Made by a program: the position numbers and the translations under genes. Positions 3,754 to 27,336 of a stretch of 32,000 bases of DNA are shown here, in pieces. Every line of letters starts with the position of its first letter. Position 1 is the first letter of the stretch. The stretch lies in the NCBI GenBank assembly GCA_963692945.1, contig OY843585.1, forward strand, positions 60,001 to 92,000, given 5' to 3'. Under the pieces are notes generated by a model, which worked only from the letters and a program-made list of their open reading frames with translations, made no database searches and was not told where the DNA came from. Source of the DNA: Bdellovibrionales bacterium. Lineage in GTDB: Bacteria > Bdellovibrionota > Bdellovibrionia > Bdellovibrionales > UBA1609.

Positions 3754-3803
3754 ATCATACATAAACTAATGGGGCAACCCTCAAATCAAAAGCAGGCAAA
3801 GTT

Positions 3804-4076: not shown

Positions 4077-4083
4077 ATTATTT

Positions 4084-4278: not shown

Positions 4279-4405
4279 AAAATTCTCCTTTTTTTGTTTA
4301 TACAAATAATCATGCAAAACAAAAGGCACCAACCACTCTCTAAACAGGTTGTAATTTGAATATTTTGACGAAGAATATAAATATCTCTTGGATTTCGGAC
4401 AAAAG

Positions 4406-5017: not shown

Positions 5018-5034
5018 AAAAAATTAAATAGCCC

Positions 5035-5544
5035 TTACAATCTTTGCCCACAGTTTTTATAGTGAGGATTGATAGGGTTGTTCGGCTTATTACCAGATTG
5101 AAACCAAGTGCTTTTGTCTTGAGAGCAATAAAAAATCTTTCCAACTTTATCTTTTTTTAAATCATAAACCTGTGCTAATTCAAAAAAAGAATTAAAAAAC
5201 TTTTTAATAACTCTTTGGTTATTTACACCTTGAGATTGTAAAACGGCTAAATTTTCTTCTATAGATTGCAATAGCTTATAGGAATGTAATCTTTGATGTA
5301 AATGGGGAATAGATGAGACTTGAGTGTAAAGATCCTTGATAATTTGTTTTGTTATTACAGATTCTTTTTGTAGAGATTGTGAATCCCATCCTTCTTGTAT
5401 CACTTTATGAAAGTCTTTTGCTTTAGAAACTAAATCCACAAAATTCTGCTTTAACTGAGGTTTTAATTGAAAAGATTTTTTCGGAATGCTGGAAAAAGCA
5501 TTACAGGAGAAAAAAAGAAACCACACACCAACCAAGACTTTCAT
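5035..5544 (-). CDS. Hypothetical secreted protein
   Basis: 169-aa ORF with a signal-peptide-like N-terminus, MKVLVGVWFLFFSCNAFS. Confidence 0.5.
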   Translation of the reverse strand: MKVLVGVWFLFFSCNAFSSIPKKSFQLKPQLKQNFVDLVSKAKDFHKVIQEGWDSQSLQKESVITKQIIKDLYTQVSSIPHLHQRLHSYKLLQSIEENLAVLQSQGVNNQRVIKKFFNSFFELAQVYDLKKDKVGKIFYCSQDKSTWFQSGNKPNNPINPHYKNCGQRL

Positions 5545-5598
5545 AAATTAAATTTATAAACAGAAATTTTTTAAGTCAATATAAAGTTCTTTTGCTTT

Positions 5599-6924
5599 TT
5601 AAAATTCATAAATACCTGTCAATTTGATACTTGTGTAGGGGCTGGCTTCTTTGAATAAATCTTCTGTGCTTGGACTAGAAATAAAAACTCCCAATACAAG
5701 GTTTAATTCAAACTCCTTGTTAATTTTTTTTGAAAAACTTACATCTATTTCTCTACCTAAAAGCGTTCCAGCCTCTAAAATCTCTTTATCTTCAATAGAA
5801 CTATCTGTAGGTCTTAAAGCAAATCCCTGAGGAGCAAAACGAATATTTCCAGAATTTGTAGAACTCATATTATGGAAAATCAATTTAAAATCAAACAAAT
5901 TGGCAAAAGAAGCTTCATAACCTACATAAAAATAGGTTAAATTCCCCCAGAAAAATAAATTCAAAAGACCTGCATTTTTATAACGATCATAAAACCAAGG
6001 ATTATAATTTTCTGTATCACTATGGTAACCCACAAAAAACCGACTCCCACTCCATTCCAATTGAGAGTAAGCCAACTCTGTATGATACATATTTTGGTCA
6101 GACTTAAACTTAAACCCACTTCCATGGGCTATACCAATCAATTTATAATCTAAATTCAGATTTGTAAGGTTTCCATCTATAGCAATTCCATAACGAGTTG
6201 TTTTTTGAGATGTTGTTTGAGATGTTGTTTGAGAAAGGGAATCCCACAGGTAAACAAGATGCAAGTTCACATGATTTAAAAATTCAGAAACCGAATAAAT
6301 ATCTAAAAAGATTCCCGCTCCATATTTTAAACTGGTTTGTTTTGTAGCACCTATATATGGATTGGGCATATAAGCTCCAAAAGCATCTAGATTGATTAAA
6401 CGGCTACTGTAGTTTATAAATAATCCATCAAAAACATAGGGATAGGGTTCTTCAAAATTAGAAGACATAATTTGATGAAAACTTGTCTCGTAAGGCACTC
6501 GCCCCATACGAAGACTTAACTCCTTAGTGAAAAACCACTTTCCAAACCCATAAAGCTTTATAAAATCTGCTGGATTTTTAGAATCTTCACCAAAAAAAGT
6601 ATAAGACAAAAGCCAAAAGTGTGTCTCAAAAATTTCACTTGGACGAAGAGATCCTTTCAAACGAAAACTTTGATCACTTGAAAATGTTCTCTGATCGGAG
6701 TCTTGAACTTGCCTACTTAAAGTACGCAACCTTAAATAACTCTCAAAATCAATCTGTCCAAAAGACATTAAGGGAATAAAAGATAAAAAGGCTAAGAGTA
6801 TCTTATTAAAGGTTGTGATTTTGTTTGTAATCCTTTTCTTTAGTAGAGTCATTTTATTATAAGCCTTTTTCTCTATAGTCTTTTTCTCTGTAGTTTTTTT
6901 TAGATAAGGCTGTTTCATTTGCAA
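5599..6924 (-). CDS. Putative outer-membrane beta-barrel protein
   Basis: C-terminal ...LTGIYEF has the terminal aromatic typical of OMPs, and the sequence is rich in alternating aromatic/polar beta-strand patterns. The probable true start is M25 (ATG at 6852), giving the signal peptide MTLLKKRITNKITTFNKILLAFLSFIPLMSFGQ. Confidence 0.6.
   Translation of the reverse strand: MQMKQPYLKKTTEKKTIEKKAYNKMTLLKKRITNKITTFNKILLAFLSFIPLMSFGQIDFESYLRLRTLSRQVQDSDQRTFSSDQSFRLKGSLRPSEIFETHFWLLSYTFFGEDSKNPADFIKLYGFGKWFFTKELSLRMGRVPYETSFHQIMSSNFEEPYPYVFDGLFINYSSRLINLDAFGAYMPNPYIGATKQTSLKYGAGIFLDIYSVSEFLNHVNLHLVYLWDSLSQTTSQTTSQKTTRYGIAIDGNLTNLNLDYKLIGIAHGSGFKFKSDQNMYHTELAYSQLEWSGSRFFVGYHSDTENYNPWFYDRYKNAGLLNLFFWGNLTYFYVGYEASFANLFDFKLIFHNMSSTNSGNIRFAPQGFALRPTDSSIEDKEILEAGTLLGREIDVSFSKKINKEFELNLVLGVFISSPSTEDLFKEASPYTSIKLTGIYEF
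6196..6234 (-). repeat. In-frame 12-bp tandem repeat inside the OMP gene (encodes SQTT-SQTT-SQKTT)
   Basis: tgttgtttgaga occurs twice (6211-6222, 6223-6234), plus an imperfect 15-nt copy at 6196-6210. Confidence 0.8.
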
Positions 6925-7010
6925 GCTTTTCCTTTAGCATTTTATCTATTTATCCACAGATTTACTATAAAAGCAAAAATTTACTTTGCAGTATATCTTT
7001 ATCTTTTGTT

Positions 7011-7039
7011 ATATTTCTTTTTTATCAGGGTGTAGTGCA
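7011..7039 (+). repeat. Degenerate duplicate of the tRNA-Pro leader plus the first 14 nt of the tRNA
   Basis: TTTATCAGGGTGTAGTGCA (7021-7039) versus TTTATCGGGGTGTAGCGCA (7101-7119): 17/19 identical and exactly 80 bp apart. The upstream T-rich context is also similar. Confidence 0.6.
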
Positions 7040-7105
7040 AAAAATTTCTATTTCTCAATTTTCTATTTCTCAAATCCACTCATTTTGATATATTACTTTC
7101 TTTAT

Positions 7106-7182
<77 letters not shown>

Positions 7183-7203
7183 TTTTACAAAACTCTAAGT
7201 AAT

Positions 7204-10200
7204 TTATTTTTTTATAAGCCCCATGGAGCAAACAATCCTTGGCTTTTCATTCATCTTCATAGTTTCTTTCTTATTTAAAAGGATTCCATTTTTATTCCTT
7301 TCTAAAGAAACCTTTAGAATTTCATTATCTGATATTTTTTGTCTAAACATTCTTTTTAAAGTATTTTCAGCATCATTAGTTAAGGGGTAATTATACACAT
7401 CATCCATGAGTTGCTCAGTAGCATCTCTTGTTCCTTCTGGTAAATTTTCTAAAACTTTAAAAAGTTTTGCCCTCGGATTTCGACTGGTTCCAAAATTGCC
7501 TTTCATACCAGTCTTTTCATTTGATTTTTGAATGATAGATAAACCTTTCTCAACTATCTCATAATGACTTTCTGTTCTTTTTAAAGACTCTGTTTCAGGT
7601 TCGCATTTTGCCGTTTCTAAAATTTTCATTTGATCTTCTGCAAGACTTTCCCCTTTGTCATTAAGCTGCAACAAGAAGTTATTCACATGAGATTTAGCAA
7701 ACAATAAAACACTTTCAGACTGATTACTCTCTTTAATGGATTTTGATGAATGAACCATGTTAGGCATATTTTTTATTTTTTCTTCTAACGAAGCATCTTT
7801 TTTAATCCCTTTATTCCATATTTCAAGAGCAAAAGAAGATAAATCAATATCTTCTAAGATTTCTTTTTCTAACACTTGAGATTTTTCGCTATATAAATCT
7901 GTCAAGATTTGCTTTTCATTTTCAAAAAATTTCTCATCTGTACCTATAACTTCTGCATTTTCTCTTAAACGATTTTGTATACGATGTTTTAAGTTTATCA
8001 ACTTATCTAAGCCTTCATTAGGCATAAAAGAATAGCAAAATATTTTATCTGCAAGCTGTCCGATCCTATCAACCCTTCCAACTCTTTGAATGAGTTTAAT
8101 AATAGCCCAAGGAAGATCATAATTGATAATAATATTACAATCTTGAAGATTTTGCCCTTCGCTTAAGACATCTGTAGTTATTAAAATATCAATTTCTGGT
8201 TCATTAAGAGAGGACTTGTTACTTTTAGGACTAAACCTTTTAATAGTAGGCTGTATATTATCCATTCCCCCTGTTATTAATTCTAATTTTTTTAACCCTC
8301 TTTTATTCAACTGACTTTCTAAATACTGGGCTGTTTCCCTAGATTGAGTAAATACAATCACCTTCTTATTTTCTTTTTTTAAAAGTGTTTCCAATTTTTT
8401 TAACTTTAAATCAGCCTCAGGATTCCACTCTTCTGAATTTCTTAACAAAGAAATAAATTGCTCTGTATCTTTTTCTAAATCTTCTAGTAATTTATCATTG
8501 AAATAAGTAGAGGATATCCAGCGAATACTTCCACTATTTTTTTCTTTATATTTTTTATAAGATTCCTTTGCTTTTTGATAAAAAGAATCAAAGTCCGTAA
8601 GAAAATAAGCCTTATCTTCATCTTCTTCTAAAAAACCCGTTATGCCACCTTCTGAATCATTAAAAGCATCAGCGACAATATCACTACTTTTATCCCTTAC
8701 TATTAAATCTTCTTGATTTTTAATAGCATAAATAAAAATACAATTCCTTAAAATATGCCTTTGAATAGATTGCAAAAAAGAATAACCACTGCTTTCTAAT
8801 CTTTTAAATAAGTTAATTCTACAAAAACCTTTTGGATGAGCACGAGATTGCTCTAAATCTTGAAATAATTTATTTTCTTCTTTTGATAAATCAGGAAGAT
8901 TTTCCTTCTTATAACTAAATAAATCGTAACGAGCCAGATTAAGATTATTAATTATATCCACAACTTCTTGAGAAAAAAGTTTTTGATATTGCTCATCAAT
9001 ATCATATTTTACAGTTTTAGCCACTCTATCAGGAAAAAATCTTTTATCTCCACTAGATGTTTCTATATAACACCTGCCTTCTGCATTTTCTCTTCCGTAA
9101 TTTTCTTTGATAAAACTTCTTGTTCTTCTAACTAAGAATTGAGCCATAAGTTGTTGCCAGTCCTCTGAGTAATTAGACTTTTCAAAAGCCCTTAATGTTG
9201 AAGTTAAACCTTCAAAGTTTTCCACTTCTTTTAAAAATCGATTAGGCCTAACTCCTAAATTAGCATCAGGGTCAACAAAAAGACCTAATTGACTAGATAA
9301 ATCCTTATAGGTTTTATTATAAGGAGTGGCTGATAATAAAATGCACTTGCTATCATTCTGACTGATATAGTCTCTAATCACTTGATATCTCTTACCTTGA
9401 GGATTTCTTAAATTATGACTCTCATCTATAATAACAATATGATGTCTTTTTAATTCAGGAAGCTTTTTTTGAACTTGACTAATAGGGATAACTTTTCCAC
9501 TCAATACCCATTCCTGCCTATGTTCTTCCCACATTGTTTCAAGATTTTTAGGACACAAAATAAGAGTTTGCCAACCATTTTCTTCTTCAAGAATTTTGGC
9601 TACAGCTATAGCCATTAAAGTTTTTCCTAAACCCACAACATCCCCAATTAACACACCATTTTTATGGACAACATGATGAGTTGCTATACGAACAGCTGCA
9701 GATTGGAACTCAAACAAAGTATCTTTTAATTCTTTTGGTATAAAAAAATCAGTTAATCCTTTTCTAGCATCTTCTGAAAGATGATAAGCCATTTTCATAT
9801 AAATATGATAAGGTTTTATTAAAGACTCTCTTGCCCAACTCTCTTCAATAAGTTTTATAATTTCTTCTGAAATATCAAGACTAAACTGGTCATTCCATTT
9901 ACCTTCAAACCACTTACTTAAGCTATCACAGGATTGCTGGTCTAACACATCTATATTAAGTTCTCCTTGTCTTTCTAAGCCTGCAAGAGTTAAATTGCTA
10001 CTTCCCACAAAGCCAATCTTTCCCGCATAATCTTTTTCATTGAAGGTCAAATAAAGTTTGGCGTGTAGGGGATGACGGGTAAAGCATTTTATAATAACTT
10101 TTTTTTCTTTCAATTGTCTTACTAAATTTCTTAATCCTTTTTCGTCTTCATTTGAGGGATAACCTGTCATAAGCTGGTTTCTAAAATTTTTAATAGTATC

Positions 10201-10479
10201 TGCCTTTAATTTCCGAGCCTTACTATTATCAGCCTTAAAAAGCACTTCGCCTTCTTTTCTCAATTCTTGTTTAAAATGGTAACCTTGACCATACATACCT
10301 AAAAGAAGACGACATTGATGCTCTTCTCCCCCTTTGTATTTATTGATAGAAGAAGCTATTTTTTTCCAACCTCTGAGATTAAAATAAGCAGCAGAAATAT
10401 CAGACCTATAAGACTTTTCTAAGGCCTCACTAAGACCAGATAAGAAAATTATTTCTTGATTGTCATAAATTGTTGGCAT
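7204..10479 (-). CDS. Fusion protein: N-terminal single-HKD PLD-family nuclease + SNF2-like SF2 helicase/translocase + uncharacterised C-terminal region of about 270 aa
   Basis: HKD motif HAKLYL...GFVGSSNLT (H139/K141; nt 10057-10065). SF2 motifs: I GLGKT (aa 283-287, nt 9619-9633), II DESH (aa 352-355, nt 9415-9426), III LLSATP (aa 381-386). C-lobe: VIVFTQS, TTDVLSEGQNLQ, and motif VI QRVGRVDRIGQ (aa 798-808). The start lies 3 nt after the upstream stop. Confidence 0.88.
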   Translation of the reverse strand: MPTIYDNQEIIFLSGLSEALEKSYRSDISAAYFNLRGWKKIASSINKYKGGEEHQCRLLLGMYGQGYHFKQELRKEGEVLFKADNSKARKLKADTIKNFRNQLMTGYPSNEDEKGLRNLVRQLKEKKVIIKCFTRHPLHAKLYLTFNEKDYAGKIGFVGSSNLTLAGLERQGELNIDVLDQQSCDSLSKWFEGKWNDQFSLDISEEIIKLIEESWARESLIKPYHIYMKMAYHLSEDARKGLTDFFIPKELKDTLFEFQSAAVRIATHHVVHKNGVLIGDVVGLGKTLMAIAVAKILEEENGWQTLILCPKNLETMWEEHRQEWVLSGKVIPISQVQKKLPELKRHHIVIIDESHNLRNPQGKRYQVIRDYISQNDSKCILLSATPYNKTYKDLSSQLGLFVDPDANLGVRPNRFLKEVENFEGLTSTLRAFEKSNYSEDWQQLMAQFLVRRTRSFIKENYGRENAEGRCYIETSSGDKRFFPDRVAKTVKYDIDEQYQKLFSQEVVDIINNLNLARYDLFSYKKENLPDLSKEENKLFQDLEQSRAHPKGFCRINLFKRLESSGYSFLQSIQRHILRNCIFIYAIKNQEDLIVRDKSSDIVADAFNDSEGGITGFLEEDEDKAYFLTDFDSFYQKAKESYKKYKEKNSGSIRWISSTYFNDKLLEDLEKDTEQFISLLRNSEEWNPEADLKLKKLETLLKKENKKVIVFTQSRETAQYLESQLNKRGLKKLELITGGMDNIQPTIKRFSPKSNKSSLNEPEIDILITTDVLSEGQNLQDCNIIINYDLPWAIIKLIQRVGRVDRIGQLADKIFCYSFMPNEGLDKLINLKHRIQNRLRENAEVIGTDEKFFENEKQILTDLYSEKSQVLEKEILEDIDLSSFALEIWNKGIKKDASLEEKIKNMPNMVHSSKSIKESNQSESVLLFAKSHVNNFLLQLNDKGESLAEDQMKILETAKCEPETESLKRTESHYEIVEKGLSIIQKSNEKTGMKGNFGTSRNPRAKLFKVLENLPEGTRDATEQLMDDVYNYPLTNDAENTLKRMFRQKISDNEILKVSLERNKNGILLNKKETMKMNEKPRIVCSMGLIKK

Positions 10480-10482
10480 TTT

Positions 10483-13400
10483 TTAAGAAGCCTTAAGACA
10501 AGAATGACCTTCTTTAAAAAATTCAAGAGAAAGTTTTTTTAAGGTTTGAAGTCTTTCTTGATTTTTGCCTGTTTTAAAGGTGCCTAGAATGTATTCATAT
10601 TCATCAATAGTTAAGCCATAAACAGAAGCTACTATAGCATCTATTTCTGCTTGAATTTTATAGCGTGTTTGTTGATTCTTTACACCACCTCGTTTAATTC
10701 CTATTTCATCGGCTAAATCATTAAATTCTTTTCCAATGCAAGTAAGCTCTGCTGATTTTTTGACAAGTTCCTTAAAGCAAGAATCCTTTTCTGTAAGCCT
10801 CGGAATATGCAAATCACGAAGATGCTTTAAATTCACATTTAAATATATTTTTTGAGAAATAAAATAGTTTAATAAAAAACTATTTAAAAAAGCCTGAAGA
10901 AAAAGCATATATTGATTATTTTTAGAGGTTTCTTTGGATTTAATATAAACTCCATGTAAGCTATTTGTGATAAAATAATTTTTAGGAATAATAGATGAGA
11001 TTAACTTCACAGATCCTGTCGACACTATAGTTCGTATGACAATTCGATGATCTTTATAAAATTGATTTTTAAATGCTTTCCCTGTTCCTGTTCTTACTTT
11101 ATTAGAATTTTTACTAATATAACGATCAACACAGGATAAATTTTTATTAAATTCATATTGATAGATAGCTGCTCCTTTATAAAGAGGCAAACTATCAGAT
11201 GACTGTTTATTCTTGAATAAAGCGGAATCATTTGTTTCATCAAATTCTCTATAAAAATCAGCCATCCATGAATTCTCTAATTTTTCTTCGAGTTTTGGAA
11301 ATTTACTAACTTTCTTAAGCATCTCTTTTTCTTTTGGATGTTTAAACTCTATAATAGAGCAATCACGAGGTGAAAATTTCTGTATTTCCTCAAAGGATTG
11401 CTCAATTGTATTTTCATTAGGAAAATTATTAATAATACCTAAATTCTCTGCTCGAAACTGGCAAGAAAATTTCTCTTGATTTTGCGGTTTGTCTTTTTTT
11501 AAGTTTAGTAATAAAAATTGAACAGTAGAACCCACACCTTCAAATATAATTCTTTCCTTTCCTTTATTAACAAAAGTAATTAGTGCTTTTATTTTACTCT
11601 CTTCAAGAACATGCCTCCTGATTCCAAAAGAGCCTTCATCGCAACAAAACCCTCGTGGCAAAACTATTCCTAAAAAACCATTTTTATTTAAAAGATTAAA
11701 ACATCTTTCTATAAACAATCTATAATTTTCTATATCAGAAGAAGATTTTCTTTCTGAACCATCTACATTAGTTATATTATCAGACTGATAAGAGTAAACC
11801 TTTGAAAAATAATCTCTTTGCAATCGATAAGTAGATTTAATCCTTAGATAATCTTTTTTTATCTTATTATTTTTTAATAGTTTTTCTTTATTTTTTTTAA
11901 GAGTATTCTTAGGTGTTCTTTTTATGCTAAAAGAGTCATCATACTTACAAAAAAATTCTTTATCTTCTATTTTAACTTTTTCCCAAGGAGGATTTGTTAT
12001 AATAATATCAAAGCCTCCTTTATCTATAATTTCATTAAAAGAAAAATCCCAGTGAAATGGTCTTAAAGAATCAAAACCTTCTTTAAGATGCCTTTTTTGT
12101 TTCTCCATGGATGTTTTTTTACCTTTAACATCTATATTTTTTTCATACTTTAACCCTTCATCGTCACACTTATCAGATAAAACTTGATTAAGATTAGAGT
12201 TATTTTCTTCAAGGAATTTTGACACCTTTTGTTTTAATTCCTTTAATTTTTCAAATGATAAGGATTTATTTTTATATTGATTAACAAGCTTGTTGTATTT
12301 TTCTTTTATTTGAGAATAAGACTCTCCAAACAGGGAAAATTGCTCATTAGTATTTTTTTCTTTTAAAAAACCTATAAGAGAATTTCCATGCATTATATTA
12401 AAATCCATATTAGGTAAAGGTTCAAGCTCCGTTGAATCTAAAGCAGAACTCACAAGAGAAAGAAAGAGCCTCAATTTACAAACTTCTGTAGCCTCTTTCA
12501 TAATATCTACACCATAAAGATTTTTAAGGATGATGTTTTTCTTTATTCCATATAAAATACTTTTGTGTCTATTATTAAAATTTTCTAGCCAAGCTTTTAA
12601 CTCCCTATCTGAACTAGTTTCTATCTTACCAATAATAGGACTATAAACATCTATTAGATTTTTCAAAGCAGAAACAAGGAAAGCTCCAGAACCAACAGCA
12701 GGGTCTAAAATCGTCAAAGTATTTAAAATGCTATCTTTATCCGTAAGTAAAATTTTACACATTTTATCATCTAATTTTTCAAATAATTCTCCAATGTTAC
12801 TAAATTTATGCCCTCTTTTAGCTAATTTATCCAAGATACAGTTGTGAATAGATCTTTGGTTCAAGAAACCTGTAATTTCATCCCTAGTATAATAAGCTCC
12901 AAGACTTTTTTGCTGAATTTCATTTATATATTTTTCAAAGATATAGCCTAAAACATCAGGACTGATTTCATTATCCTTTCCTTTATTATCTTGAAGATGC
13001 CATTCATAATTTTGAAAAATTTTAAATGTTTCTTCAAAGGCTTTATCTTTTATTTTTATATTTCTATATTTCTCTTCAATCTCATGAGGAATAAAAAGCC
13101 CTCCATTTAAATACTTGATTTTTCCAAGAAGATTTTTTGCTTTCTCGCTTCTTTCAATAGTTTTTTTTGCAAAACCCTCAAAGAAAAGTGTATTTAAAAA
13201 TTCTGAATGGTATCGGTCTTTTCCTTTAACCTTGCTTTCCTGCAGTTTAGTTTCAAGATAGCTACGATTATTATCACAAAAATCCTTTTTCTGTAAAAAC
13301 CAAATAAACATCAAACGATTTAGTATAATAGAAGAATACCATTTTTTATCCTCTTCACTTTTGATTCCTGAAATATATTTTTGGAAACTAAAATGGTTAT

Positions 13401-13872
13401 TTTTAAAATCTTCATAAAACTTTTTTGTGACTTTTTCAGTATCAAAAGCTTTATCTAAGTTGTTTGCTATTTCAGAAATTTTTGGTACATCTTCTATTCC
13501 AAAGTGAATGCTTGCTAATTTACTGATAAAAGCATCACCACTTTGCTCCTTAAAATAATTATGAGTTCTAAGATCTCCTTCTTTTGAAAGATAAGAGAGG
13601 TAAAAACTTTTATCATTTGAAAATAACAACAAATGTTTATGATACTTTTGTTTTATCTTGTTATGAATCTTTTTTCTTCTTTCACCTGCAACATATTCAA
13701 ATTTTAATACGGGTACACCACTAATTTCTGCAACATGTGTGTAAGGTATATTTGAATTTTCTAATTTAATTGAACTAGACTGGACTTGTGGATTATTCCA
13801 ACCTAAGCTCTCAACAAATAATTTTTGAAATTCAAAATTTTTCAAATGATTTCTAATACTTGCGATATCCAT
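10483..13872 (-). CDS. Large gamma-class N6-adenine DNA methyltransferase (Eco57I/MmeI/PglX-like) with a C-terminal target-recognition region of about 500 aa
   Basis: Conserved blocks: ILNRLMFIWFLQKK, YLNGGLF, ISPDVLGYIFEKYIN, GAYYT. AdoMet motif I is LDPAVGSGAFL (aa 389-399, nt 12676-12708). Also NLYGVDI and HGNSLIG. Catalytic motif IV is NPPW (aa 627-630, nt 11983-11994). I could not recognise any nuclease motif. Confidence 0.88.
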   Translation of the reverse strand: MDIASIRNHLKNFEFQKLFVESLGWNNPQVQSSSIKLENSNIPYTHVAEISGVPVLKFEYVAGERRKKIHNKIKQKYHKHLLLFSNDKSFYLSYLSKEGDLRTHNYFKEQSGDAFISKLASIHFGIEDVPKISEIANNLDKAFDTEKVTKKFYEDFKNNHFSFQKYISGIKSEEDKKWYSSIILNRLMFIWFLQKKDFCDNNRSYLETKLQESKVKGKDRYHSEFLNTLFFEGFAKKTIERSEKAKNLLGKIKYLNGGLFIPHEIEEKYRNIKIKDKAFEETFKIFQNYEWHLQDNKGKDNEISPDVLGYIFEKYINEIQQKSLGAYYTRDEITGFLNQRSIHNCILDKLAKRGHKFSNIGELFEKLDDKMCKILLTDKDSILNTLTILDPAVGSGAFLVSALKNLIDVYSPIIGKIETSSDRELKAWLENFNNRHKSILYGIKKNIILKNLYGVDIMKEATEVCKLRLFLSLVSSALDSTELEPLPNMDFNIMHGNSLIGFLKEKNTNEQFSLFGESYSQIKEKYNKLVNQYKNKSLSFEKLKELKQKVSKFLEENNSNLNQVLSDKCDDEGLKYEKNIDVKGKKTSMEKQKRHLKEGFDSLRPFHWDFSFNEIIDKGGFDIIITNPPWEKVKIEDKEFFCKYDDSFSIKRTPKNTLKKNKEKLLKNNKIKKDYLRIKSTYRLQRDYFSKVYSYQSDNITNVDGSERKSSSDIENYRLFIERCFNLLNKNGFLGIVLPRGFCCDEGSFGIRRHVLEESKIKALITFVNKGKERIIFEGVGSTVQFLLLNLKKDKPQNQEKFSCQFRAENLGIINNFPNENTIEQSFEEIQKFSPRDCSIIEFKHPKEKEMLKKVSKFPKLEEKLENSWMADFYREFDETNDSALFKNKQSSDSLPLYKGAAIYQYEFNKNLSCVDRYISKNSNKVRTGTGKAFKNQFYKDHRIVIRTIVSTGSVKLISSIIPKNYFITNSLHGVYIKSKETSKNNQYMLFLQAFLNSFLLNYFISQKIYLNVNLKHLRDLHIPRLTEKDSCFKELVKKSAELTCIGKEFNDLADEIGIKRGGVKNQQTRYKIQAEIDAIVASVYGLTIDEYEYILGTFKTGKNQERLQTLKKLSLEFFKEGHSCLKAS

Positions 13873-14033
13873 GGATGATATATCGGCAAGCCTAAATTTT
13901 ATTTTAAGAAAATCTATACCACAATAGAAAATCTAGACCTTAAATAAGAACAGGTTCCTCTTCACCCATTGATTACAAACTTTCTAGTTCCTCGTAAATC
14001 TCATGAAGGCCATCTAAAAAACTTAGAGACAAA

Positions 14034-14060
14034 TCAAATCCTGCCACCCCGACCATTTTA
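14034..14060 (+). repeat. Distal copy of the 27-bp tRNA-Pro 3'-end direct repeat (att-like)
   Basis: Identical to 7161-7187. Not part of a full tRNA, because upstream sequence does not fold as one. Confidence 0.9.
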
Positions 14061-14079
14061 AAACGGAAAAATAAATATT

Positions 14080-15048
14080 TTATTTGTTTTGAGATTGGTT
14101 TGGCATAACTACAGGTTGCGGTTGAAAAAATTTCATAAAAGCTCTACCTGTATGGTTTTCAATAATTTTTGTTACGAAGGTAGAGGTAAAAGTATGATTT
14201 ATCGTGTGGAAGATAGATAAAAATAAATCCTGCTCTTTTTGATTTTCTTCAAGATATTGAATTTTTAAACCTTGTTTTTCTAATTGATCTCTAGATATTT
14301 TTCGACCATGAGTTTTGAAAGTGTTATTATCTGATAACCATTCTGCTATTGATTTTGCCTTTTCTTTTTCATTTTTAAGCATATATTTTTCTAACCAGCT
14401 CTCTACTAATTCCTGCGATAGTTTTATAACCTTATCACTTTGAATAAGAAGATCGGGACCATACTGACTTAACATAGGAAGCCAAGAATTTAATTTAGAA
14501 GAATCCTTACATTCTTTTTGAGCCAGATCAAATTGATCCAATATAGATTGGGCAGAAACCCATCTACCACCTGTTGGAGTAGGTAAGACAAGTTGAGGAT
14601 CAGTAGGACCTAAAAAAGAATGCTTTCCAAGAACTATTACATCCCCTGCACAAGAAATCATAGTGCCAGCAGACATAGCCATTGAAGGCACAATAACACG
14701 AATATTTTTAAATTTTGATCTTAAATAACTCACAAAAGCTTCAGTAGATTCTATGGAACCACCTGGTGTATGGAGAATTAAATCTAGATCAGAACCTGAA
14801 AGACCATGAATAACCTCCATAAGACCTTGTAAGTCCTCATCTGTGATGCTTGACAAGTTTGGGGGAACATTAGGCTTTACGATCCAACAAGAAGAATACA
14901 GAATAATATTTCTTTTTGTATATTCAAAACATTTTTTTAAATATTTACGACGAATAAAATCAATAGGAGATACTTTTGCATTTAATGCCTCAGATCCAGG
15001 TAAACATTGCTCGTTTAATTCTTTAAGTGTTTCACTCCAAGTTGGCAT
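14080..15048 (-). CDS. SDH-family ClpP/crotonase-fold serine protease (S49-like)
   Basis: LILHTPGGSIESTEAFVSYLRSKFKNIRVIVPSMAMSAGTMISCAGDVIVLGKHSFLGPTDPQ matches the SDH-type serine proteinase pattern (HTPGG ... catalytic Ser in MSAG, S126). Confidence 0.8.
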   Translation of the reverse strand: MPTWSETLKELNEQCLPGSEALNAKVSPIDFIRRKYLKKCFEYTKRNIILYSSCWIVKPNVPPNLSSITDEDLQGLMEVIHGLSGSDLDLILHTPGGSIESTEAFVSYLRSKFKNIRVIVPSMAMSAGTMISCAGDVIVLGKHSFLGPTDPQLVLPTPTGGRWVSAQSILDQFDLAQKECKDSSKLNSWLPMLSQYGPDLLIQSDKVIKLSQELVESWLEKYMLKNEKEKAKSIAEWLSDNNTFKTHGRKISRDQLEKQGLKIQYLEENQKEQDLFLSIFHTINHTFTSTFVTKIIENHTGRAFMKFFQPQPVVMPNQSQNK

Positions 15049-15067
15049 TGATATGTATCTTAATATT

Positions 15068-15277
15068 TTAAAGAAAGGTTTTTAGATTGAGTGTGTTAGA
15101 ATTATAACTGTTATAACTGTTATAACTGTTATCTTTAATATCTTGATGAGTTTTTACAACTTTATTAGCTTCTTGATAATATTGATAAACTTCCATTAAT
15201 TCTTTAATCCCCGGCTTTTTAAGATATTCTTGTAGCTCTGTAGCTCTTTTTGGCCTATCTTTAAGTGTTTTTTTCAT
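15068..15277 (-). CDS. Small hypothetical protein (69 aa) with an NSY-repeat tail, upstream partner of the SDH protease
   Basis: AGGA lies 6 nt upstream of the ATG at 15277. The gene ends 19 nt before the protease start. The N-terminal half is charged and helical. No known motif. Confidence 0.45.
   Translation of the reverse strand: MKKTLKDRPKRATELQEYLKKPGIKELMEVYQYYQEANKVVKTHQDIKDNSYNSYNSYNSNTLNLKTFL
15102..15132 (-). repeat. In-frame 9-bp tandem repeat (ttataactg x3.4) encoding (SYN)n
   Basis: ttataactg occurs at 15102-15110, 15111-15119 and 15120-15128, followed by a partial ttat. Confidence 0.85.
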
Positions 15278-15486
15278 GTTAGATCCTTATCTTTATTTTA
15301 CTATAATTTCCCTAAAATCTAAAGCCCAGAACAAAGAAAAGCAAGGTCAAAAGTGGGTTTTTATGAGGCTTTTTTAAGATAAACAAGTTTTACCTATTCT
15401 GGAAAACTAAATGATACCCCCAAACGATAAGCCCTAGCTTCATTATTGTTATTTTATACGTTTTGTCTAAAGAATTGTTAAAAAGA

Positions 15487-15547
15487 GGCAGACGACATGC
15501 AGACGACATTGGTCTCAAAGTCATTGATTTTAAAGGGTTTTTGAGAG
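15487..15547 (+). repeat. 61-bp direct repeat, copy 1 (contains two tandem 11-mers, gcagacgacat)
   Basis: ggcagacgacatgcagacgacattggtctcaaagtcattgattttaaagggtttttgagag matches copy 2 at 60/61 positions. Confidence 0.9.
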
Positions 15548-15574
15548 ATCTGAAGACAGAATGAGCTGAATATA

Positions 15575-15635
15575 GGTAGACGACATGCAGACGACATTGG
15601 TCTCAAAGTCATTGATTTTAAAGGGTTTTTGAGAG
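15575..15635 (+). repeat. 61-bp direct repeat, copy 2
   Basis: ggtagacgacatgcagacgacattggtctcaaagtcattgattttaaagggtttttgagag, separated from copy 1 by a 27-bp spacer. Confidence 0.9.
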
Positions 15636-15690
15636 GTTAATTAATTAACACTTTAAAAAATTATTACTTTTACCTAAATAATTAAAATTA

Positions 15691-16851
15691 CTAGCTTTTT
15701 TCCAAACTTTTAACAATATCTTTTAACTCCTGAATAAATTTCCAAAAAGGCAAAATAATAACTCCCTTCTCTTTTTCTATATGCTTTCTTTTAAGATGAA
15801 CTTGGTAAAAAACTGGAATATTTATTCGTTCTTTAAAATAATAAATGTGTGGAGAAATATTTTCCTCTCCTAACTTACCTTCTACAGCAAAAAGTGGTTT
15901 TTTATTTTTAACGACAACAAAATCAACTTCTCTTTTATTTGTATCTCTTAAAAACCTTAATTCCATTTTATAACCCTGACTGTCTTCTAAAAAATGACAG
16001 AATTTTAAAAGATGACTTGCAAGCATATTTTCAAAACGAAGACCTTTATTTTCAATAACACTCCAATCCCATAGATAAAGCTTTTGTTCTTTTTTTACAG
16101 CACGAATTTTAGGAGCTCCATAAGGAGAGATTCTAAATGAATAGTAAAGGTTATCTAAAATCTCAATCCAATTTGCCGCTGTAGCATGATGAACACCAAG
16201 ATCGTCTGCTATACTTTTAATAGAAAGAGGTGATCCTATTCTTCTAGGAAGATCATTTGCTAAAAGCTCTATTAAACTCAGTTCTTTTATATTGTTCAGC
16301 TCTCTTATATCGTCATTGATAACTCTAAAAACCCGCTCTCGTTGCCAAAGCCTTAAGTTTTTCTCTCTTCCTTCTAAAAGAACTTCAGGGAAACCTCCAA
16401 AATGAAGTAATTGCTCTGTTGTTTCTTTATTAAAACTAGGCATTTCATCTAAAGAAAAGGGATGGAGTCTTACATAGCGATAACGTCCCAAAAGAGAATC
16501 CCCTCCTTTACGATAATAATCAAGCCGAGCCGAGCCTGTTATTAAAAATTTATATTTATATCTTTTTGTATCATAAAGACCTTTTATAAGAGATCGCCAC
16601 TTTTTAAATTTATGAATCTCATCTAAACATAGTATTTTTTTATCTATAGGAAATTCTCCATTTTGAATTTTAAACCGAGAAGAAGGGTCATCCCAATTTA
16701 AATAAGAAGAACTTCTTATTGATTTAGGAGTTAGAAACTGTGTACAAAGAGTTGTCTTACCAACCTGTCTAGGACCTCCTACAAAAACCATTTTATTTTT
16801 TAAAAACTCTTCAATAGTATTAAATAGATACCGATTTTTAAATTTCTTCAT
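15691..16851 (-). CDS. AAA-family ATPase with a C-terminal DUF4143-type PD-(D/E)xK nuclease-like domain
   Basis: Walker A GGPRQVGKTTL; Walker B-like ILCLDEIHKF; LITGSARLD and SLLGRYRYVRLHPFSL are typical of the AAA_14 family. The C-terminal REVDFVVV...LFAVEGK gives a D...ExK arrangement. Confidence 0.8.
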   Translation of the reverse strand: MKKFKNRYLFNTIEEFLKNKMVFVGGPRQVGKTTLCTQFLTPKSIRSSSYLNWDDPSSRFKIQNGEFPIDKKILCLDEIHKFKKWRSLIKGLYDTKRYKYKFLITGSARLDYYRKGGDSLLGRYRYVRLHPFSLDEMPSFNKETTEQLLHFGGFPEVLLEGREKNLRLWQRERVFRVINDDIRELNNIKELSLIELLANDLPRRIGSPLSIKSIADDLGVHHATAANWIEILDNLYYSFRISPYGAPKIRAVKKEQKLYLWDWSVIENKGLRFENMLASHLLKFCHFLEDSQGYKMELRFLRDTNKREVDFVVVKNKKPLFAVEGKLGEENISPHIYYFKERINIPVFYQVHLKRKHIEKEKGVIILPFWKFIQELKDIVKSLEKS

Positions 16852-16866
16852 AACTTCATCTTATAT

Positions 16867-16929
16867 CGTGAGTAAATGATAGTCAAGTATCAAATACTCA
16901 CGAGTAAATGATAGTTAGGTATCAAATAC
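16867..16929. repeat. Tandem 28-bp repeat (period 32) with an embedded 8-bp inverted repeat, immediately upstream of the ATPase gene
   Basis: gagtaaatgatagtcaagtatcaaatac (16870-16897) versus gagtaaatgatagttaggtatcaaatac (16902-16929): 26/28 identical. CGTGAGTA (16867-16874) and TACTCACG (16895-16902) form an inverted repeat. Confidence 0.8.
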
Positions 16930-16960
16930 ACCGACACCTATGGGCTTTAGGATAGCCAGT

Positions 16961-17017
16961 TTTTCTGAACCCTACTCCAGAAAAGACATGACTTTTCTGG
17001 AATACACTACAGAAAAG
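16961..17017. promoter_or_regulatory. Array of four alternating CAGAAAAG / CTTTTCTG half-sites (operator or alternative-hairpin leader)
   Basis: TTTTCTG 16961-16967; CAGAAAAG 16978-16985; CTTTTCTG 16992-16999; CAGAAAAG 17010-17017. The central pair is a perfect 9-bp palindrome, CCAGAAAAG-N6-CTTTTCTGG (16977-17000). The array lies between the divergent genes at 16851 (-) and 17040 (+). Confidence 0.5.
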
Positions 17018-17039
17018 TCTTTGATTTCAAATTAAGTAG

Positions 17040-17252
17040 ATGTATTATCATCCTATGACTCGTGAGGATTTAAAAAAAATTAATGATGAGATTGCTCAAA
17101 TAGAATATTTATTATCTTTTTTAGATTCAAGAAATTCATTTGAAAATAAACAAATAAAAAATCTAATAGGACGTGCTTTTGAAATACGGGAAATATTACA
17201 GGCTTATTATTTAAAAGCCCGAAAAAAAAAGATAGGATTACAAATTCTCTAA
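17040..17252 (+). CDS. Small hypothetical helical protein (70 aa)
   Basis: ORF only; no motif recognised. It starts 23 nt downstream of the half-site array. Confidence 0.35.
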   Translation: MYYHPMTREDLKKINDEIAQIEYLLSFLDSRNSFENKQIKNLIGRAFEIREILQAYYLKARKKKIGLQIL

Positions 17253-17558
17253 AAAAACTTAAAAGAATATACCTTTCTTTGTTCTTCGTATTTAGTTCCC
17301 GATTTTTATTTTCAAAAACATTAGTTAAAATATTAATTATGCAACATCTTGACTAAAATCATCTTCATCTATATCGCTCAGTACTGGAATATTTTGGAAA
17401 ATGATGATTATTAGAAAATAGTCCTGATCAAGACAAAAATACTTGAATGAGATATTTTAATAAACTTAAGATATATAGAAACAGATAAAGAAGAAAGTGA
17501 GTTTAACTAGGATTCAACTCTTTAATAAAGTTTTCTAATAAATTACCTAGGAGTTTTT

Positions 17559-18461
17559 ATGCCAATACCTTTCCAACAAATTATGCTTCCTCTTCTTAAA
17601 GAATTAAAAAATGGGGAAGAAAAATCAACAGCTGATATTAGAACAAAACTGCAAAATCATTTCAAGTTATCAGAAGAAGAAGCCAAAAAATTACTTCCTA
17701 GTGGTGGTAATCGATCCATATTTTCTAATCGTGTCAACTGGGCTAAAACCTACCTAAAAAAAGCAGGCCTCATTGATTATCCTCAACGAAGTTATGCTCG
17801 TATTACTAAAACAGGCAAAGAAGTATTAAATGAAAATCTTTCAGAAATAACTTTTGATTATTTAAAAAAGTTTCCTGAGTTTTTAGAATTTCTGAATCTA
17901 AATTCAAAAAAAGAGCAACAAGAAGAATTGAGTTCTAATGAAACACCTTTAGAGCAATTAGATATGGCTTATACAATGTTAAAAGATGAACTTAAAAAAG
18001 AACTTTTAGAAAATGTAAGGAAGAGTTCTTATTTTTTCTTTGAACAGATCATTGTCGATTTACTTATAAATCTTGGTTATGGTGGTTCTAAAAAGGAAGC
18101 TGGAAAAGCCTTTAAAACAACTAAGGATGAAGGAATTGATGGAGTTATAAAGGAAGATAAACTTGGTCTTGATTTGATTTACACTCAAGCTAAGAAATGG
18201 GAAGCTTGTATAGGAAGACCAGAAATTCAAAAATTTGCTGGTGCATTACAAGGTAAAAAAGCTAAAAAAGGTATCTTTGTTACCACTTCTTATTTCTCTA
18301 ACGATGCAATTGAATATGTTAAAACCATAGACTCTAAAATTATTTTGATTGATGGTGATTCTCTAGTTGAATATATGATTGATACAAATACGGGAGTAAA
18401 CACAACTTCAAAATATGAAGTTAAAAAAATAGATGAAGATTATTTTAGCGACAATATCTAA
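17559..18461 (+). CDS. mrr: Mrr-family type IV (modification-dependent) restriction endonuclease
   Basis: Strong RBS (TAGGAG, 17548-17553). N-terminal winged-helix-like region (Mrr_N style: SNRVNWAKTYLKKAGLI). Catalytic core KDEGIDGVIKEDKLGLDLIYTQAKKW matches the Mrr_cat D...(Q/E)xK signature. Confidence 0.85.
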   Translation: MPIPFQQIMLPLLKELKNGEEKSTADIRTKLQNHFKLSEEEAKKLLPSGGNRSIFSNRVNWAKTYLKKAGLIDYPQRSYARITKTGKEVLNENLSEITFDYLKKFPEFLEFLNLNSKKEQQEELSSNETPLEQLDMAYTMLKDELKKELLENVRKSSYFFFEQIIVDLLINLGYGGSKKEAGKAFKTTKDEGIDGVIKEDKLGLDLIYTQAKKWEACIGRPEIQKFAGALQGKKAKKGIFVTTSYFSNDAIEYVKTIDSKIILIDGDSLVEYMIDTNTGVNTTSKYEVKKIDEDYFSDNI

Positions 18462-18764
18462 AGTTCTAATTCAGTTTCCTATTATTTTTTTTGAAAAAAT
18501 AACAATTAACAGATTTTGATTCTGTCATTCATAGATTCCAACTGCTTTAGCTTTAAAAAATTGAAAATTAAATTATTTTAAAAACCTATTTTAATGCCTT
18601 TAAAAAAAAATAAGAACAAAATAAAAATGAAAAAATTACAATTTAAAATGACATTTTCTTAAAAATTATTACTTACAATTATCACTTAAAACGAGTATTT
18701 ACTTACAATTAAAATTTAAAACCCTGTTTAAACCTATTTAATTACTTAAAAACAATAAAATTTA

Positions 18765-19154
18765 ATGAAAAACCCTTTAGAAATCAAGGCTTTAAATAAG
18801 CAAAAACTTGACACTTTGCCAATAATTTCCTACTCTTACAAAATGATTTTTAAAGAAATGGACAAAAAAGACACCTTTATTTTCAATGGTTTTCTCCCTA
18901 ATAGTAGCTTGCAAGAAAAGTGCAAAGCTTTTTATCACATGGTTGAGGAACGATCTCCTAATTCATCGGCTAAAGAAGCTTCTATCACAAAAATAGGAAA
19001 CAACTATGAAGCGAAATTAAAAATAATCTCAGGATCTTGTAACCTTGAAATTTCTTCTAAAGAAACCAAACCCTCTCAAACTATAGAAGAGCTTCACAAA
19101 AAATTCTTAAATCAAATTGTAGATTGGAATAAACACAGAGATCTCTTTTTTTAA
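18765..19154 (+). CDS. Hypothetical protein; weak resemblance to the HPF/RaiA (S30AE) ribosome-associated fold
   Basis: The pattern ...YEAKLKIISGSCNLEISSKE....IEELHKKFLNQIVDWNKHR loosely resembles the HPF C-terminal beta-strand/helix and KxKxK tail. Not secure. Confidence 0.4.
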   Translation: MKNPLEIKALNKQKLDTLPIISYSYKMIFKEMDKKDTFIFNGFLPNSSLQEKCKAFYHMVEERSPNSSAKEASITKIGNNYEAKLKIISGSCNLEISSKETKPSQTIEELHKKFLNQIVDWNKHRDLFF

Positions 19155-27335: not shown

Positions 27336-27336
27336 C

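What the first reader, a model, noticed from the sequence alone, without database searches (positions are those of the whole stretch)
7161..14060. Recombinase-less cassette bounded by 27-bp tRNA-Pro direct repeats and symmetric 8-bp inverted repeats
Seen in sequence: the last 22 nt of tRNA-Pro plus 5 downstream nt (tcaaatcctgccaccccgaccatttta, 7161-7187) recur perfectly at 14034-14060. Exactly 5 nt inside each copy sits one arm of an 8-bp inverted repeat: CTCTAAGT at 7193-7200 and ACTTAGAG at 14021-14028. The enclosed 6.85 kb holds only the MTase and PLD-SNF2 genes, with 16 nt of spare DNA at the tRNA side and 161 nt at the far side. Established knowledge: a duplicated tRNA 3' end is the hallmark of tyrosine-recombinase integration (attL/attR). 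Element-side core-type recombinase binding sites are inverted relative to each other. att-bounded elements lacking their own recombination module (CIMEs) can be mobilised in trans by a related ICE or IME. Inference: this is a minimal, cis-mobilisable defence cassette. It would let a restriction-like system hitch-hike on an integrase encoded elsewhere.
Basis: partly seen in the sequence, partly recalled or inferred. Interest (0 to 1): 0.75.

Follow-up and report, generated by a model that had tools for sequence, protein, structure and literature searches.

The report
Integrase-less defence segment at tRNA-Pro
A two-gene restriction-like defence module sits between an intact tRNA-Pro gene and a perfect 27-base copy of that gene's end, which is the usual scar of site-specific integration; it has no recombinase of its own, is only part of a larger 11.7-kb defence island, and shows no sign of being able to move today.

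Summary
There is an intact tRNA-Pro(UGG), an exact 27-bp repeat at 7161-7187 and 14034-14060, and an 8-bp inverted repeat 5 nt inside each copy. The only two genes enclosed are an Eco57I/MmeI-type methyltransferase and a PLD-nuclease/SNF2 ATPase. No recombinase was detected in the ORFs of 80 aa or more, plus two small island ORFs, across the 32-kb window.

- **The cassette is not the whole insertion.** A syntenic relative lacks window 7187-18842 (11.7 kb) entirely. The repeat-bounded segment is the tRNA-proximal 59% of a larger defence island at a variable hotspot.
- **The repeat splits a recurrent gene set.** The genes just outside the far repeat (a small ORF and an SDH/ClpP-like protease) lie next to, or inside, homologous methyltransferase/PLD-SNF2 modules in two other genomes.
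- **The inverted arms are not canonical core sites.** They would be 37 bp apart in a reconstituted attP and have no chromosomal partner half-sites. Their statistical support is post hoc (p about 0.002 to 0.05).
- **No second example exists.** About 95 homologous modules were inspected and none repeats the tRNA-fragment architecture. No matching attP was found in viral contigs.

The best reading is an att scar around an integrase-less segment, structurally a cis-mobilisable element (CIME). Mobility is untested. This is a new member of a known kind and of modest interest.

The parts
7106..7182 (+). Intact tRNA-Pro(UGG) gene with encoded CCA; the integration target
   Evidence: ARAGORN; Rfam RF00005 at 68.9 bits. 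It is conserved next to the same outer-membrane-protein-like gene in relatives L133, L134 and L137.
7161..7187 (+). attL-like copy of the 27-bp direct repeat (T-loop base 2 through the tRNA 3' end, plus TTTTA)
   Evidence: Exact match to 14034-14060; 0 of 100 shuffles gave two copies.
7193..7200 (+). Left arm of the 8-bp inverted repeat (CTCTAAGT), 5 nt inside the repeat; function unproven
   Evidence: Same-offset p is about 0.001-0.002 and any-offset p about 0.03-0.05.
7204..10479 (-). 1091-aa fusion of a PLD (HKD/NgoFVII-type) nuclease and an SNF2 ATPase; the likely effector of the restriction-like system
   Evidence: Pfam PLDc_2, RE_NgoFVII, SNF2-rel_dom and Helicase_C. PADLOC 'HKD+Snf2' at 1e-48 and DrmD. 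NCBIfam DISARM_DrmD at 136 bits, below the 610-bit cut-off.
10483..13872 (-). 1129-aa Eco57I/MmeI-type N6-adenine DNA methyltransferase (PglX/DrmMI-like); the self-marking partner
   Evidence: Pfam Eco57I and MmeI_Mtase. PADLOC REase_MTase_IIG at 3.5e-94. A methyltransferase homologue was detected next to the PLD-SNF2 gene in 68 of 80 metagenome loci.
13873..14033 (-). 161-nt non-coding leader upstream of the methyltransferase; contains the right inverted-repeat arm
   Evidence: No promoter-like site at or above the scan threshold lies inside it, and no terminator was found.
14021..14028 (+). Right arm of the 8-bp inverted repeat (ACTTAGAG), 5 nt inside the repeat
14034..14060 (+). attR-like orphan copy of the tRNA-Pro 3' end (no 5' tRNA part)
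   Evidence: Among 140 occurrences of the 22-mer examined, this is the only one that is not part of a complete tRNA.
14080..15048 (-). SDH-family ClpP-fold serine protease; its stop codon lies 19 nt outside attR. A recurrent neighbour of the methyltransferase/PLD-SNF2 module elsewhere
   Evidence: Pfam SDH_protease; NCBIfam Clp_like_SDH. Homologues are adjacent to the module in L218 and nested in it in L219.
15068..15277 (-). 69-aa ORF that always precedes the SDH protease
   Evidence: tblastn matches to the 67-aa and 72-aa ORFs upstream of the protease in L218 and L219.
15691..16851 (-). AAA_14/DUF4143 ATPase (PADLOC defence candidate PDC-S01)
17559..18461 (+). Mrr-type type IV (modification-dependent) restriction endonuclease
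   Evidence: Pfam Mrr_N and Mrr_cat; PADLOC mREase_IV at 1e-84.
7187..18842 (.). The whole variable island (11.66 kb), replaced by about 0.4 kb in the syntenic relative L133; no att-like sequence at its right end
   Evidence: blastn synteny: window 1-7186 matches L133 16728-9853, and window 18843-28381 matches L133 9429-1. No third copy of the repeat at up to 3 mismatches.

Best explanation
**Origin of the repeat.** The 27-bp repeat is a genuine attL/attR-type scar. It was left by site-specific integration of foreign DNA into the 3' end of tRNA-Pro(UGG), most probably by a tyrosine recombinase. The incoming DNA carried its own copy of the tRNA end, which now completes the gene. The displaced original end became the orphan copy at 14034-14060.

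**What lies between the repeats.** The segment holds a two-gene ATP-dependent, restriction-modification-like defence module. By inference from its domains:
- the Eco57I/MmeI-type N6-adenine methyltransferase marks host DNA;
- the PLD-nuclease/SNF2 fusion translocates on and cuts unmarked DNA.

**Status today.** The segment has no recombinase. Structurally it is a CIME, meaning an integrase-less, att-flanked element that is typically a decayed or accreted island. It is one layer of an 11.7-kb defence island that also holds a small ORF with an SDH protease, an AAA_14/DUF4143 ATPase and an Mrr endonuclease. That island occupies a variable hotspot between tRNA-Pro and the conserved SppA/GreA block.

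**Shown versus inferred.** Shown: the repeat, the gene content, the lack of a recombinase, the island's absence from a relative, and the recurrent linkage with the protease pair. Inferred: the recombinase type, the order of insertion events, and the defence mechanism. Nothing indicates current mobility.
For: - **Repeat and tRNA.** Exact 27-mer with 0 expected by chance and an intact tRNA. The repeat starts in the T-loop and runs past the tRNA end, the form known for tRNA-integrating elements (own knowledge, after Williams 2002).
- **Uniqueness of the orphan copy.** It is the only non-tRNA occurrence among 140 copies of the 22-mer examined.
- **No recombinase.** None was detected among the window ORFs scanned.
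- **Presence/absence.** Relative L133 has the tRNA and both flanks but lacks 7187-18842.
- **Hotspot.** Relatives L134 and L137 carry unrelated cargo immediately after the same tRNA: ankyrin-repeat genes, or a reverse transcriptase with a TaqI restriction-modification system.
- **Cargo moves between locations.** It is a widespread two-gene module found at unrelated loci, on plasmids and on viral contigs.
- **Parallel case.** In L200 a homologous module is bounded by a 33-bp repeat with an integrase fragment outside it.
Against: - No cognate integrase or matching attP was found anywhere. The rest of the source genome could not be retrieved.
- No relative shows the intermediate state with the tRNA followed directly by 14061+.
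- The island's right end has no att remnant, so the history of the outer part is unexplained.
- The protease pair outside attR travels with the module in L218 and L219. This fits one multi-gene block better than two independent insertions.
- GC content (27-32%) is the same as the flanks, so composition gives no sign of foreign origin.
Confidence: 0.6

Rival explanations
1. One reading: an active, minimal cis-mobilisable defence cassette. An integrase encoded elsewhere in the genome or on an incoming element recognises the two 27-bp sites, helped by the 8-bp inverted arms. It excises the 6.9-kb segment as a circle and re-integrates it at tRNA-Pro sites.
For: - The two repeat copies are identical (27 of 27).
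- The arms are symmetric, with same-offset p of about 0.001-0.002.
- The packing is very tight, with both genes intact.
- CIMEs mobilised by accretion with an integrative element are documented (PMC5704250).
- Two other modules of this family are repeat-bounded without an internal integrase (L135 and L200).
- One weak echo exists: the 12-mer AAAACTCTAAGT lies upstream of the L135 methyltransferase.
Against: - The arms would be 37 bp apart in attP and have no chromosomal partner half-sites, so they are not canonical core sites (read).
- The attR inner flank matches the tRNA T-stem side at 1 of 9 positions.
- Only 16 nt are available for a P' arm.
- No second instance of the att-plus-arm architecture was found in viral contigs or in the fetched loci.
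- The L135 echo is not significant after correction for 24 tests.
- The closest homologous modules (L132, L135, L136, L218, L219) sit at other loci with no tRNA or att-like sequence.
- The protease pair outside attR is part of the same recurrent neighbourhood.
- 27 identical bases say little about how recent the event was.
Confidence: 0.2
2. The 27-mer is internal to a single multi-gene island rather than an element boundary. On this view the small-ORF/protease/methyltransferase/PLD-SNF2 set, plus the ATPase and Mrr genes, arrived or was assembled as one block. It could have been accreted in a donor and transferred by homologous recombination at the tRNA-Pro/SppA flanks. The orphan tRNA end would then be an inherited relic with no present role.
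For: - L133 lacks the whole 11.7 kb at once.
- The four genes are linked in L218 and L219, with similar nucleotide divergence from the window: protease 74-75%, PLD-SNF2 about 70%, methyltransferase 67-77% across its aligned blocks.
- All four are on one strand and no terminator was predicted between the protease and the methyltransferase.
- Composition is uniform across the island.
Against: - L218 and L219 were chosen because they share contigs with module homologues, so the linkage estimate is biased. Only about 3 of 49 close modules have the protease.
- Gene order differs in all three genomes.
- No att-like sequence lies between these genes in L218 or L219.
- This model still needs an earlier site-specific integration to create the orphan copy.
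Confidence: 0.17
3. The repeat is a chance match, an assembly artefact, or a transposon target-site duplication with terminal inverted repeats.
For: The inverted arms near the repeats superficially resemble terminal inverted repeats next to a target duplication.
Against: - 27 exact bases have zero expectation by chance.
- The arms do not abut the repeat, and the 5-nt spacers differ (CAAAA against the reverse complement TTTGT).
- Target duplications of 27 bp are not a feature of known transposase families (own knowledge).
- No transposase is present.
- The locus lies in a 1.56-Mb contig.
Confidence: 0.03

Closest known systems
CIMEs (cis-mobilisable elements), e.g. those related to ICESt1/ICESt3 of Streptococcus thermophilus
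   Same: Flanked by attL and attR direct repeats at the end of a target gene, with no integration or transfer genes. Often found in tandem with other island material at the same site, and can carry restriction-modification cargo. The definition is from PMC5704250; the S. thermophilus examples are from my own knowledge.
   Different: For known CIMEs a cognate integrative element with matching att sites is known, and accretion or mobilisation has been shown. Here no cognate integrase or attP was found and nothing about mobility is tested. The host is an AT-rich, small-genome Oligoflexia/Bdellovibrionota-like lineage rather than a Firmicute.
tRNA-integrated genomic/defence islands made by tyrosine (P4/lambda-type) integrases
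   Same: Insertion exactly at the tRNA 3' end, a direct repeat that rebuilds the tRNA, defence-gene cargo, absence from a related genome, and a variable hotspot.
   Different: No integrase gene lies next to the tRNA or anywhere in the 32 kb. There is no compositional contrast. The outer part of the island has no detectable right-end repeat.
Recombinase-less elements that use host recombinases (IMEX elements at dif; pdif modules of Acinetobacter plasmids)
   Same: Small cargo modules bounded by recombination sites, encoding no recombinase and depending on an enzyme supplied in trans.
   Different: Those sites are dif-like: two 11-bp XerC/XerD arms around a 6-bp spacer. The 27-mer here is a tRNA end with no such internal symmetry (read; comparison from own knowledge).
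DISARM class 1 (DrmD SNF2, DrmC PLD, DrmMI methyltransferase) and Hma (SNF2-nuclease HmaA, methylase, ATPase)
   Same: The cargo pairs an Eco57I-type N6-adenine methyltransferase with an SNF2 ATPase carrying a nuclease domain. DrmD, DrmMI and HmaA profiles hit it. As in the hma operon (PMC11232893), other genes are inserted inside the operon in some genomes.
   Different: DrmA and DrmB are absent. Scores are far below family cut-offs (136 against 610 bits). PLD and SNF2 are fused in one protein. HmaA has a C-terminal PD-(D/E)xK domain, not an N-terminal PLD. Public records call the protein only 'helicase-related protein'.

Membership tests
CIME (cis-mobilisable element) | Flanked by attL and attR direct repeats at a target gene | tested here: met
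   Exact 27-bp repeat, one copy completing tRNA-Pro.
CIME (cis-mobilisable element) | Lacks integration/excision and transfer genes | tested here: met
   Only two ORFs, a methyltransferase and a PLD-SNF2 protein, with 180 nt of non-coding DNA. No recombinase or relaxase domains.
CIME (cis-mobilisable element) | att sites match those of a cognate integrative element (ICE/IME) whose integrase can act on them | tested here: inconclusive
   No matching attP or arm pattern in viral contigs. None among the loci carrying the 22-mer. The source genome outside the window was not retrievable.
CIME (cis-mobilisable element) | Excision or transfer after accretion with an integrative element | not testable with these tools
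   Needs read-level or experimental data.
tRNA-integrated genomic island (tyrosine-integrase type) | Insertion at the tRNA 3' end with a repeat that reconstitutes the tRNA | tested here: met
tRNA-integrated genomic island (tyrosine-integrase type) | Integrase gene within the island, usually next to an att site | tested here: not met
   No Phage_integrase or recombinase hit among the window ORFs scanned.
tRNA-integrated genomic island (tyrosine-integrase type) | Absent from related genomes with conserved flanks | tested here: met
   L133 lacks 7187-18842. This holds for the whole 11.7-kb island, not for the cassette alone.
tRNA-integrated genomic island (tyrosine-integrase type) | Core-type sites as an inverted pair around a 6-8 bp overlap | tested here: not met
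   The proposed arms would be 37 bp apart in attP. Positions 7148-7155 and 14066-14073 match an arm at only 1 and 2 of 8 positions (read).
DISARM class 1 | DrmA helicase and DrmB (DUF1998) present alongside DrmD, DrmC and DrmMI | tested here: not met
   The module has two genes only. The PLD-SNF2 protein scores 136 bits against the 610-bit cut-off for DISARM_DrmD.
Methyltransferase + PLD-SNF2 two-gene module (unnamed, widespread) | Adjacent Eco57I-type methyltransferase and PLD-SNF2 genes | tested here: met
   Seen in 68 of 80 metagenome loci, 9 of 10 viral loci, and plasmids such as Synechocystis pSYSX.
IMEX / pdif module | Bounding sites are dif-like (XerC arm, 6-bp spacer, XerD arm) | tested here: not met
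   The 27-mer is a tRNA T-loop-to-CCA segment with no internal dyad symmetry.

The most novel reading that the evidence does not exclude
The tRNA-Pro end acts as a collecting site where integrase-less defence cassettes are inserted and shuffled by a recombinase encoded elsewhere. Each cassette would carry a minimal attachment site (the 27-mer plus 8-bp inverted arms). This would be an integron-like defence-cassette system in a small-genome Bdellovibrionota-like lineage. The repeat-bounded, integrase-less homologous modules in L135 (56 bp) and L200 (33 bp) would be further cases of the same habit at other target genes.
Probability: 0.12. Interest if true: 0.6.

Novelty: new member of a known kind. 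Interest (0 to 1): 0.3.

Why it matters
If the segment were shown to excise, it would be a very small example of a defence system that moves between genomes using a borrowed integrase. It would also come from a poorly studied lineage.

As the evidence stands, it illustrates something already known. Defence genes pile up next to tRNA genes, integration scars can outlast the recombinase that made them, and defence modules are reshuffled among such islands.

A practical lesson follows for genome scans. A repeat-bounded segment should be compared with syntenic relatives, and with the gene neighbourhoods of its homologues, before it is called an autonomous cassette. Here both comparisons changed the picture.

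Tried and rejected
1. **Retrieving the source genome.** Exact-protein look-ups for window proteins and their 100% identical database entries all failed. The rest of the genome could not be searched for integrases or further 27-mer copies.
2. **Genome-collection scan with the upstream outer-membrane-like protein.** No relatives were found.
3. **Genome-collection scan with the 22-nt tRNA end.** All were complete tRNAs, so the scan was uninformative for att use.
4. **Viral-contig scans.** The 27-mer, an attR-type pattern and an attL-type pattern all returned zero hits. The 22-mer returned only phage or host tRNAs.
5. **Is CTCTAAGT a conserved cassette-end or promoter motif?** One 12-mer echo lies upstream of the L135 methyltransferase. 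It is not significant after multiple testing. The L218 occurrence lies in a probable coding start. Rejected as robust evidence.
6. **A decayed third att copy at the island's right end.** None was found at up to 3 mismatches in 16 or 27 nt. The region is almost pure A+T.
7. **Transposon reading (terminal inverted repeats plus target duplication).** Rejected because the arms do not abut the repeat and there is no transposase.
8. **Rfam scan of the window.** Only the tRNA was found.
9. **Promoter and terminator scans at both junctions.** Nothing above the shuffled background.
10. **Retrieving Williams 2002.** The paper on tRNA sublocation classes is not held, so statements drawn from it are marked as own knowledge.

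Full report
**1.

ARAGORN and Rfam find one tRNA in the window, tRNA-Pro(UGG) at 7106-7182 on the + strand. The 27-mer TCAAATCCTGCCACCCCGACCATTTTA occurs exactly at 7161-7187 and 14034-14060. No further copy appears at up to 3 mismatches, and no shuffle of the window gave two copies.

Read against the tRNA, the repeat starts at the second base of the T-loop. It covers the 3' T-stem, the 3' acceptor strand, ACCA and five downstream bases. The 8-mers CTCTAAGT (7193-7200) and ACTTAGAG (14021-14028) each lie exactly 5 nt inside a repeat copy.

I simulated how often such an inverted repeat arises. An 8-bp inverted repeat somewhere in two 40-nt flanks occurs in 3-5% of trials. One at the same offset occurs in 0.1-0.2%. 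Because the pattern was chosen after looking, the true significance lies between these figures.

The enclosed DNA holds two ORFs, at 7204-10479 and 10483-13872, both on the - strand. They leave 16 nt and 161 nt of spare DNA.

**2. The cargo**

The 1129-aa protein carries Eco57I and MmeI-type methyltransferase domains and matches type IIG, DrmMI and PglX profiles. The 1091-aa protein is an N-terminal PLD (HKD, NgoFVII-like) nuclease domain fused to an SNF2 ATPase. Its best profile is PADLOC 'HKD+Snf2', followed by DrmD.

The pair is not DISARM. DrmA and DrmB are missing and the scores are far below the family cut-offs.

The pair is a widespread, unnamed two-gene module:
- A methyltransferase homologue was detected next to the PLD-SNF2 gene in 68 of 80 metagenome loci and 9 of 10 full-length viral-contig loci.
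- It occurs on plasmids such as Synechocystis pSYSX, where it is annotated only as 'helicase-related protein' and 'DNA methyltransferase'.

By inference from the domains, it works like an ATP-dependent restriction-modification system. The methyltransferase marks self DNA, and the SNF2 motor with its PLD nuclease attacks unmarked DNA.

**3. No recombinase**

None was detected in 34 of the 37 window ORFs of 80 aa or more, or in the two small island ORFs scanned. The three unscanned ORFs are nested inside larger annotated ORFs on the opposite strand. The cassette's 180 nt of non-coding DNA cannot hide a pseudogene.

**4. Comparison with relatives changes the picture**

The closest homologues carry names such as Oligoflexia and Bdellovibrionales. 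The source is a 1.56-Mb contig of about 30% GC. The source contig itself could not be fetched.

A homologue search with the gene upstream of the tRNA led to three related loci.

- **L133** is syntenic on both sides. Window 1-7186 aligns with L133 16728-9853, and window 18843-28381 aligns with L133 9429-1. Between these blocks L133 has about 0.4 kb where the window has 11.66 kb. The unit that is present or absent is therefore 7187-18842, and the repeat-bounded cassette is only its tRNA-proximal 59%.
- **L134** carries ankyrin-repeat genes directly after the same tRNA.
- **L137** carries a reverse transcriptase and a TaqI restriction-modification system there.
- Neither L134 nor L137 has an integrase or a tRNA fragment within reach.

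The site is thus a variable hotspot that collects defence genes. The outer part of the window's island holds a small ORF, an SDH/ClpP-like protease, an AAA_14/DUF4143 ATPase and an Mrr endonuclease. Its right end shows no att remnant.

**5. The repeat lies inside a recurrent gene neighbourhood**

A homologue search with the protease gave 17 relatives at 67-73% identity. Two of them share contigs with PLD-SNF2 homologues. The gene orders are:
- L218: small ORF, protease, M78 peptidase, methyltransferase, two small genes, PLD-SNF2.
- L219: methyltransferase, small ORF, protease, PLD-SNF2, with the protease stop 11 nt before the PLD-SNF2 start.
- Window, on the coding strand: small ORF, protease, 27-mer, methyltransferase, PLD-SNF2.

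Nucleotide identity to the window is 74-75% for the protease and about 70% for PLD-SNF2.

The linkage is a minority state, seen in about 3 of 49 close modules, and I picked these two loci because of the shared contigs. Even so, three adjacent occurrences in three different gene orders are not chance. The slot between methyltransferase and PLD-SNF2 also varies elsewhere: 65-aa plus 217-aa genes in L135, 76-aa plus 230-aa genes in L218, and VapBC in pSYSX.

This weakens the idea that the 27-mer delimits a self-contained unit.

**6. Does the architecture recur?**

I inspected about 95 homologous modules:

| Set | Loci |
|---|---|
| Close relatives | L132, L135, L136, L218, L219 |
| Metagenome loci | 80 |
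| Full-length viral-contig loci | 10 |

None is flanked by a tRNA fragment. tRNAs are rare nearby, at 4 of 83 loci plus 2 of 10 viral loci.

Two modules are bounded by other long direct repeats:
- L135 has a 56-nt repeat that duplicates the 5' end of a DUF3326 gene. A Transposase_31 gene lies inside, but no integrase.
- L200 has a 33-nt repeat, with an integrase fragment lying outside it.

L132 sits among conjugation genes and an integrase fragment. Such modules therefore do ride on integrative elements, and integrase-less, repeat-bounded copies are not unique. None of them shares this att site or these arms.

**7. The arms**

In a reconstituted attP the arms would flank 37 bp (5 + 27 + 5). 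Tyrosine-recombinase core sites flank a 6-8 bp overlap (established knowledge). The chromosomal positions where partner half-sites would lie read gagggtcg (7148-7155) and gaaaaata (14066-14073). These match an arm at only 1 and 2 of 8 positions. The attR inner flank matches the tRNA's 5' T-stem side at 1 of 9 positions.

The only echo elsewhere is the 12-mer AAAACTCTAAGT upstream of the L135 methyltransferase. It does not survive correction for the 24 comparisons made. Pattern scans of viral contigs for the attR-type and attL-type arrangements found nothing.

The arms may be accessory sites, a regulatory element or coincidence. They are not shown to be recombinase sites.

**8. Verdict**

[quoted passage not shown] Whether it can still be moved is untested, and the comparative evidence gives no positive sign of it.

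| Reading | Probability |
|---|---|
| Scar / CIME-like segment within a larger defence island | about 0.6 |
| Active trans-mobilised cassette | about 0.2 |
| 27-mer is an inherited relic inside one multi-gene block | about 0.17 |
| Chance, artefact or transposon | about 0.03 |

This is a new member of a known kind, and its interest is modest.

Noticed in passing
window 15481-15547 and 15569-15635: A 67-nt direct repeat (96-98% identical, 88-nt spacing) in the intergenic region between the 69-aa ORF and the AAA_14/DUF4143 ATPase. No copy was found elsewhere in the window or in any fetched locus.
   Followed up: partly
L135 3050-3105 and 13299-13354: A 10.2-kb island is bounded by a 56-nt direct repeat (98% identical) that duplicates the 5' end of a DUF3326 gene. 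It holds a Transposase_31/Rpn-like gene, a 250-aa ORF, the methyltransferase, 65-aa and 217-aa ORFs, and PLD-SNF2. No tyrosine or serine recombinase domain was found.
   Followed up: partly
L200 9801-9833 and 17361-17393: A distant homologous module (PLD-SNF2, methyltransferase and a 153-aa DprA-like fragment) is bounded by an exact 33-nt direct repeat. A 183-aa Phage_integrase fragment lies outside it at 7149-7700, and an NgoBV restriction-modification pair lies beyond the right copy.
   Followed up: partly
L135 9148-9999; L218 16222-17095; L219 9775-10945; L300 9487-10120: The gap between the methyltransferase and PLD-SNF2 genes is a variable slot. It holds different two-gene inserts in different genomes: 65-aa plus 217-aa, 76-aa plus 230-aa, small ORF plus SDH protease, or VapBC. 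It is empty in the window and in L132.
   Followed up: partly
L204 4548-5406: A tRNA-Pro is followed by a second tRNA-like gene that seems split by about 650 nt carrying a 149-aa ORF (4821-5270). This looks like an intron or insertion in the anticodon region.
   Followed up: no
window 7106-7182 versus L133 9857-9933: The tRNA-Pro acceptor stem differs by a compensatory pair, T:A in the window against C:G in L133. This is why L133's tRNA end differs from the 22-mer at one base.
   Followed up: no
L137 8580-9503; L134 2989-4379: In relatives the same tRNA-Pro is followed by quite different cargo. L137 has an RVT_1 reverse transcriptase convergent on the tRNA, plus a TaqI restriction-modification system. 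L134 has ankyrin-repeat proteins.
   Followed up: partly
L219 9250-9775: The 525-nt spacer between the methyltransferase and the small ORF looks much more G+C-rich than its AT-rich surroundings (judged by eye from the sequence). Its nature is unknown.
   Followed up: no
L135 5344-5356 versus window 7189-7200: The 12-mer AAAACTCTAAGT, which contains the window's left arm, occurs about 95 nt upstream of the L135 methyltransferase start. The local-alignment p is about 0.01 before correcting for 24 tests.
   Followed up: yes
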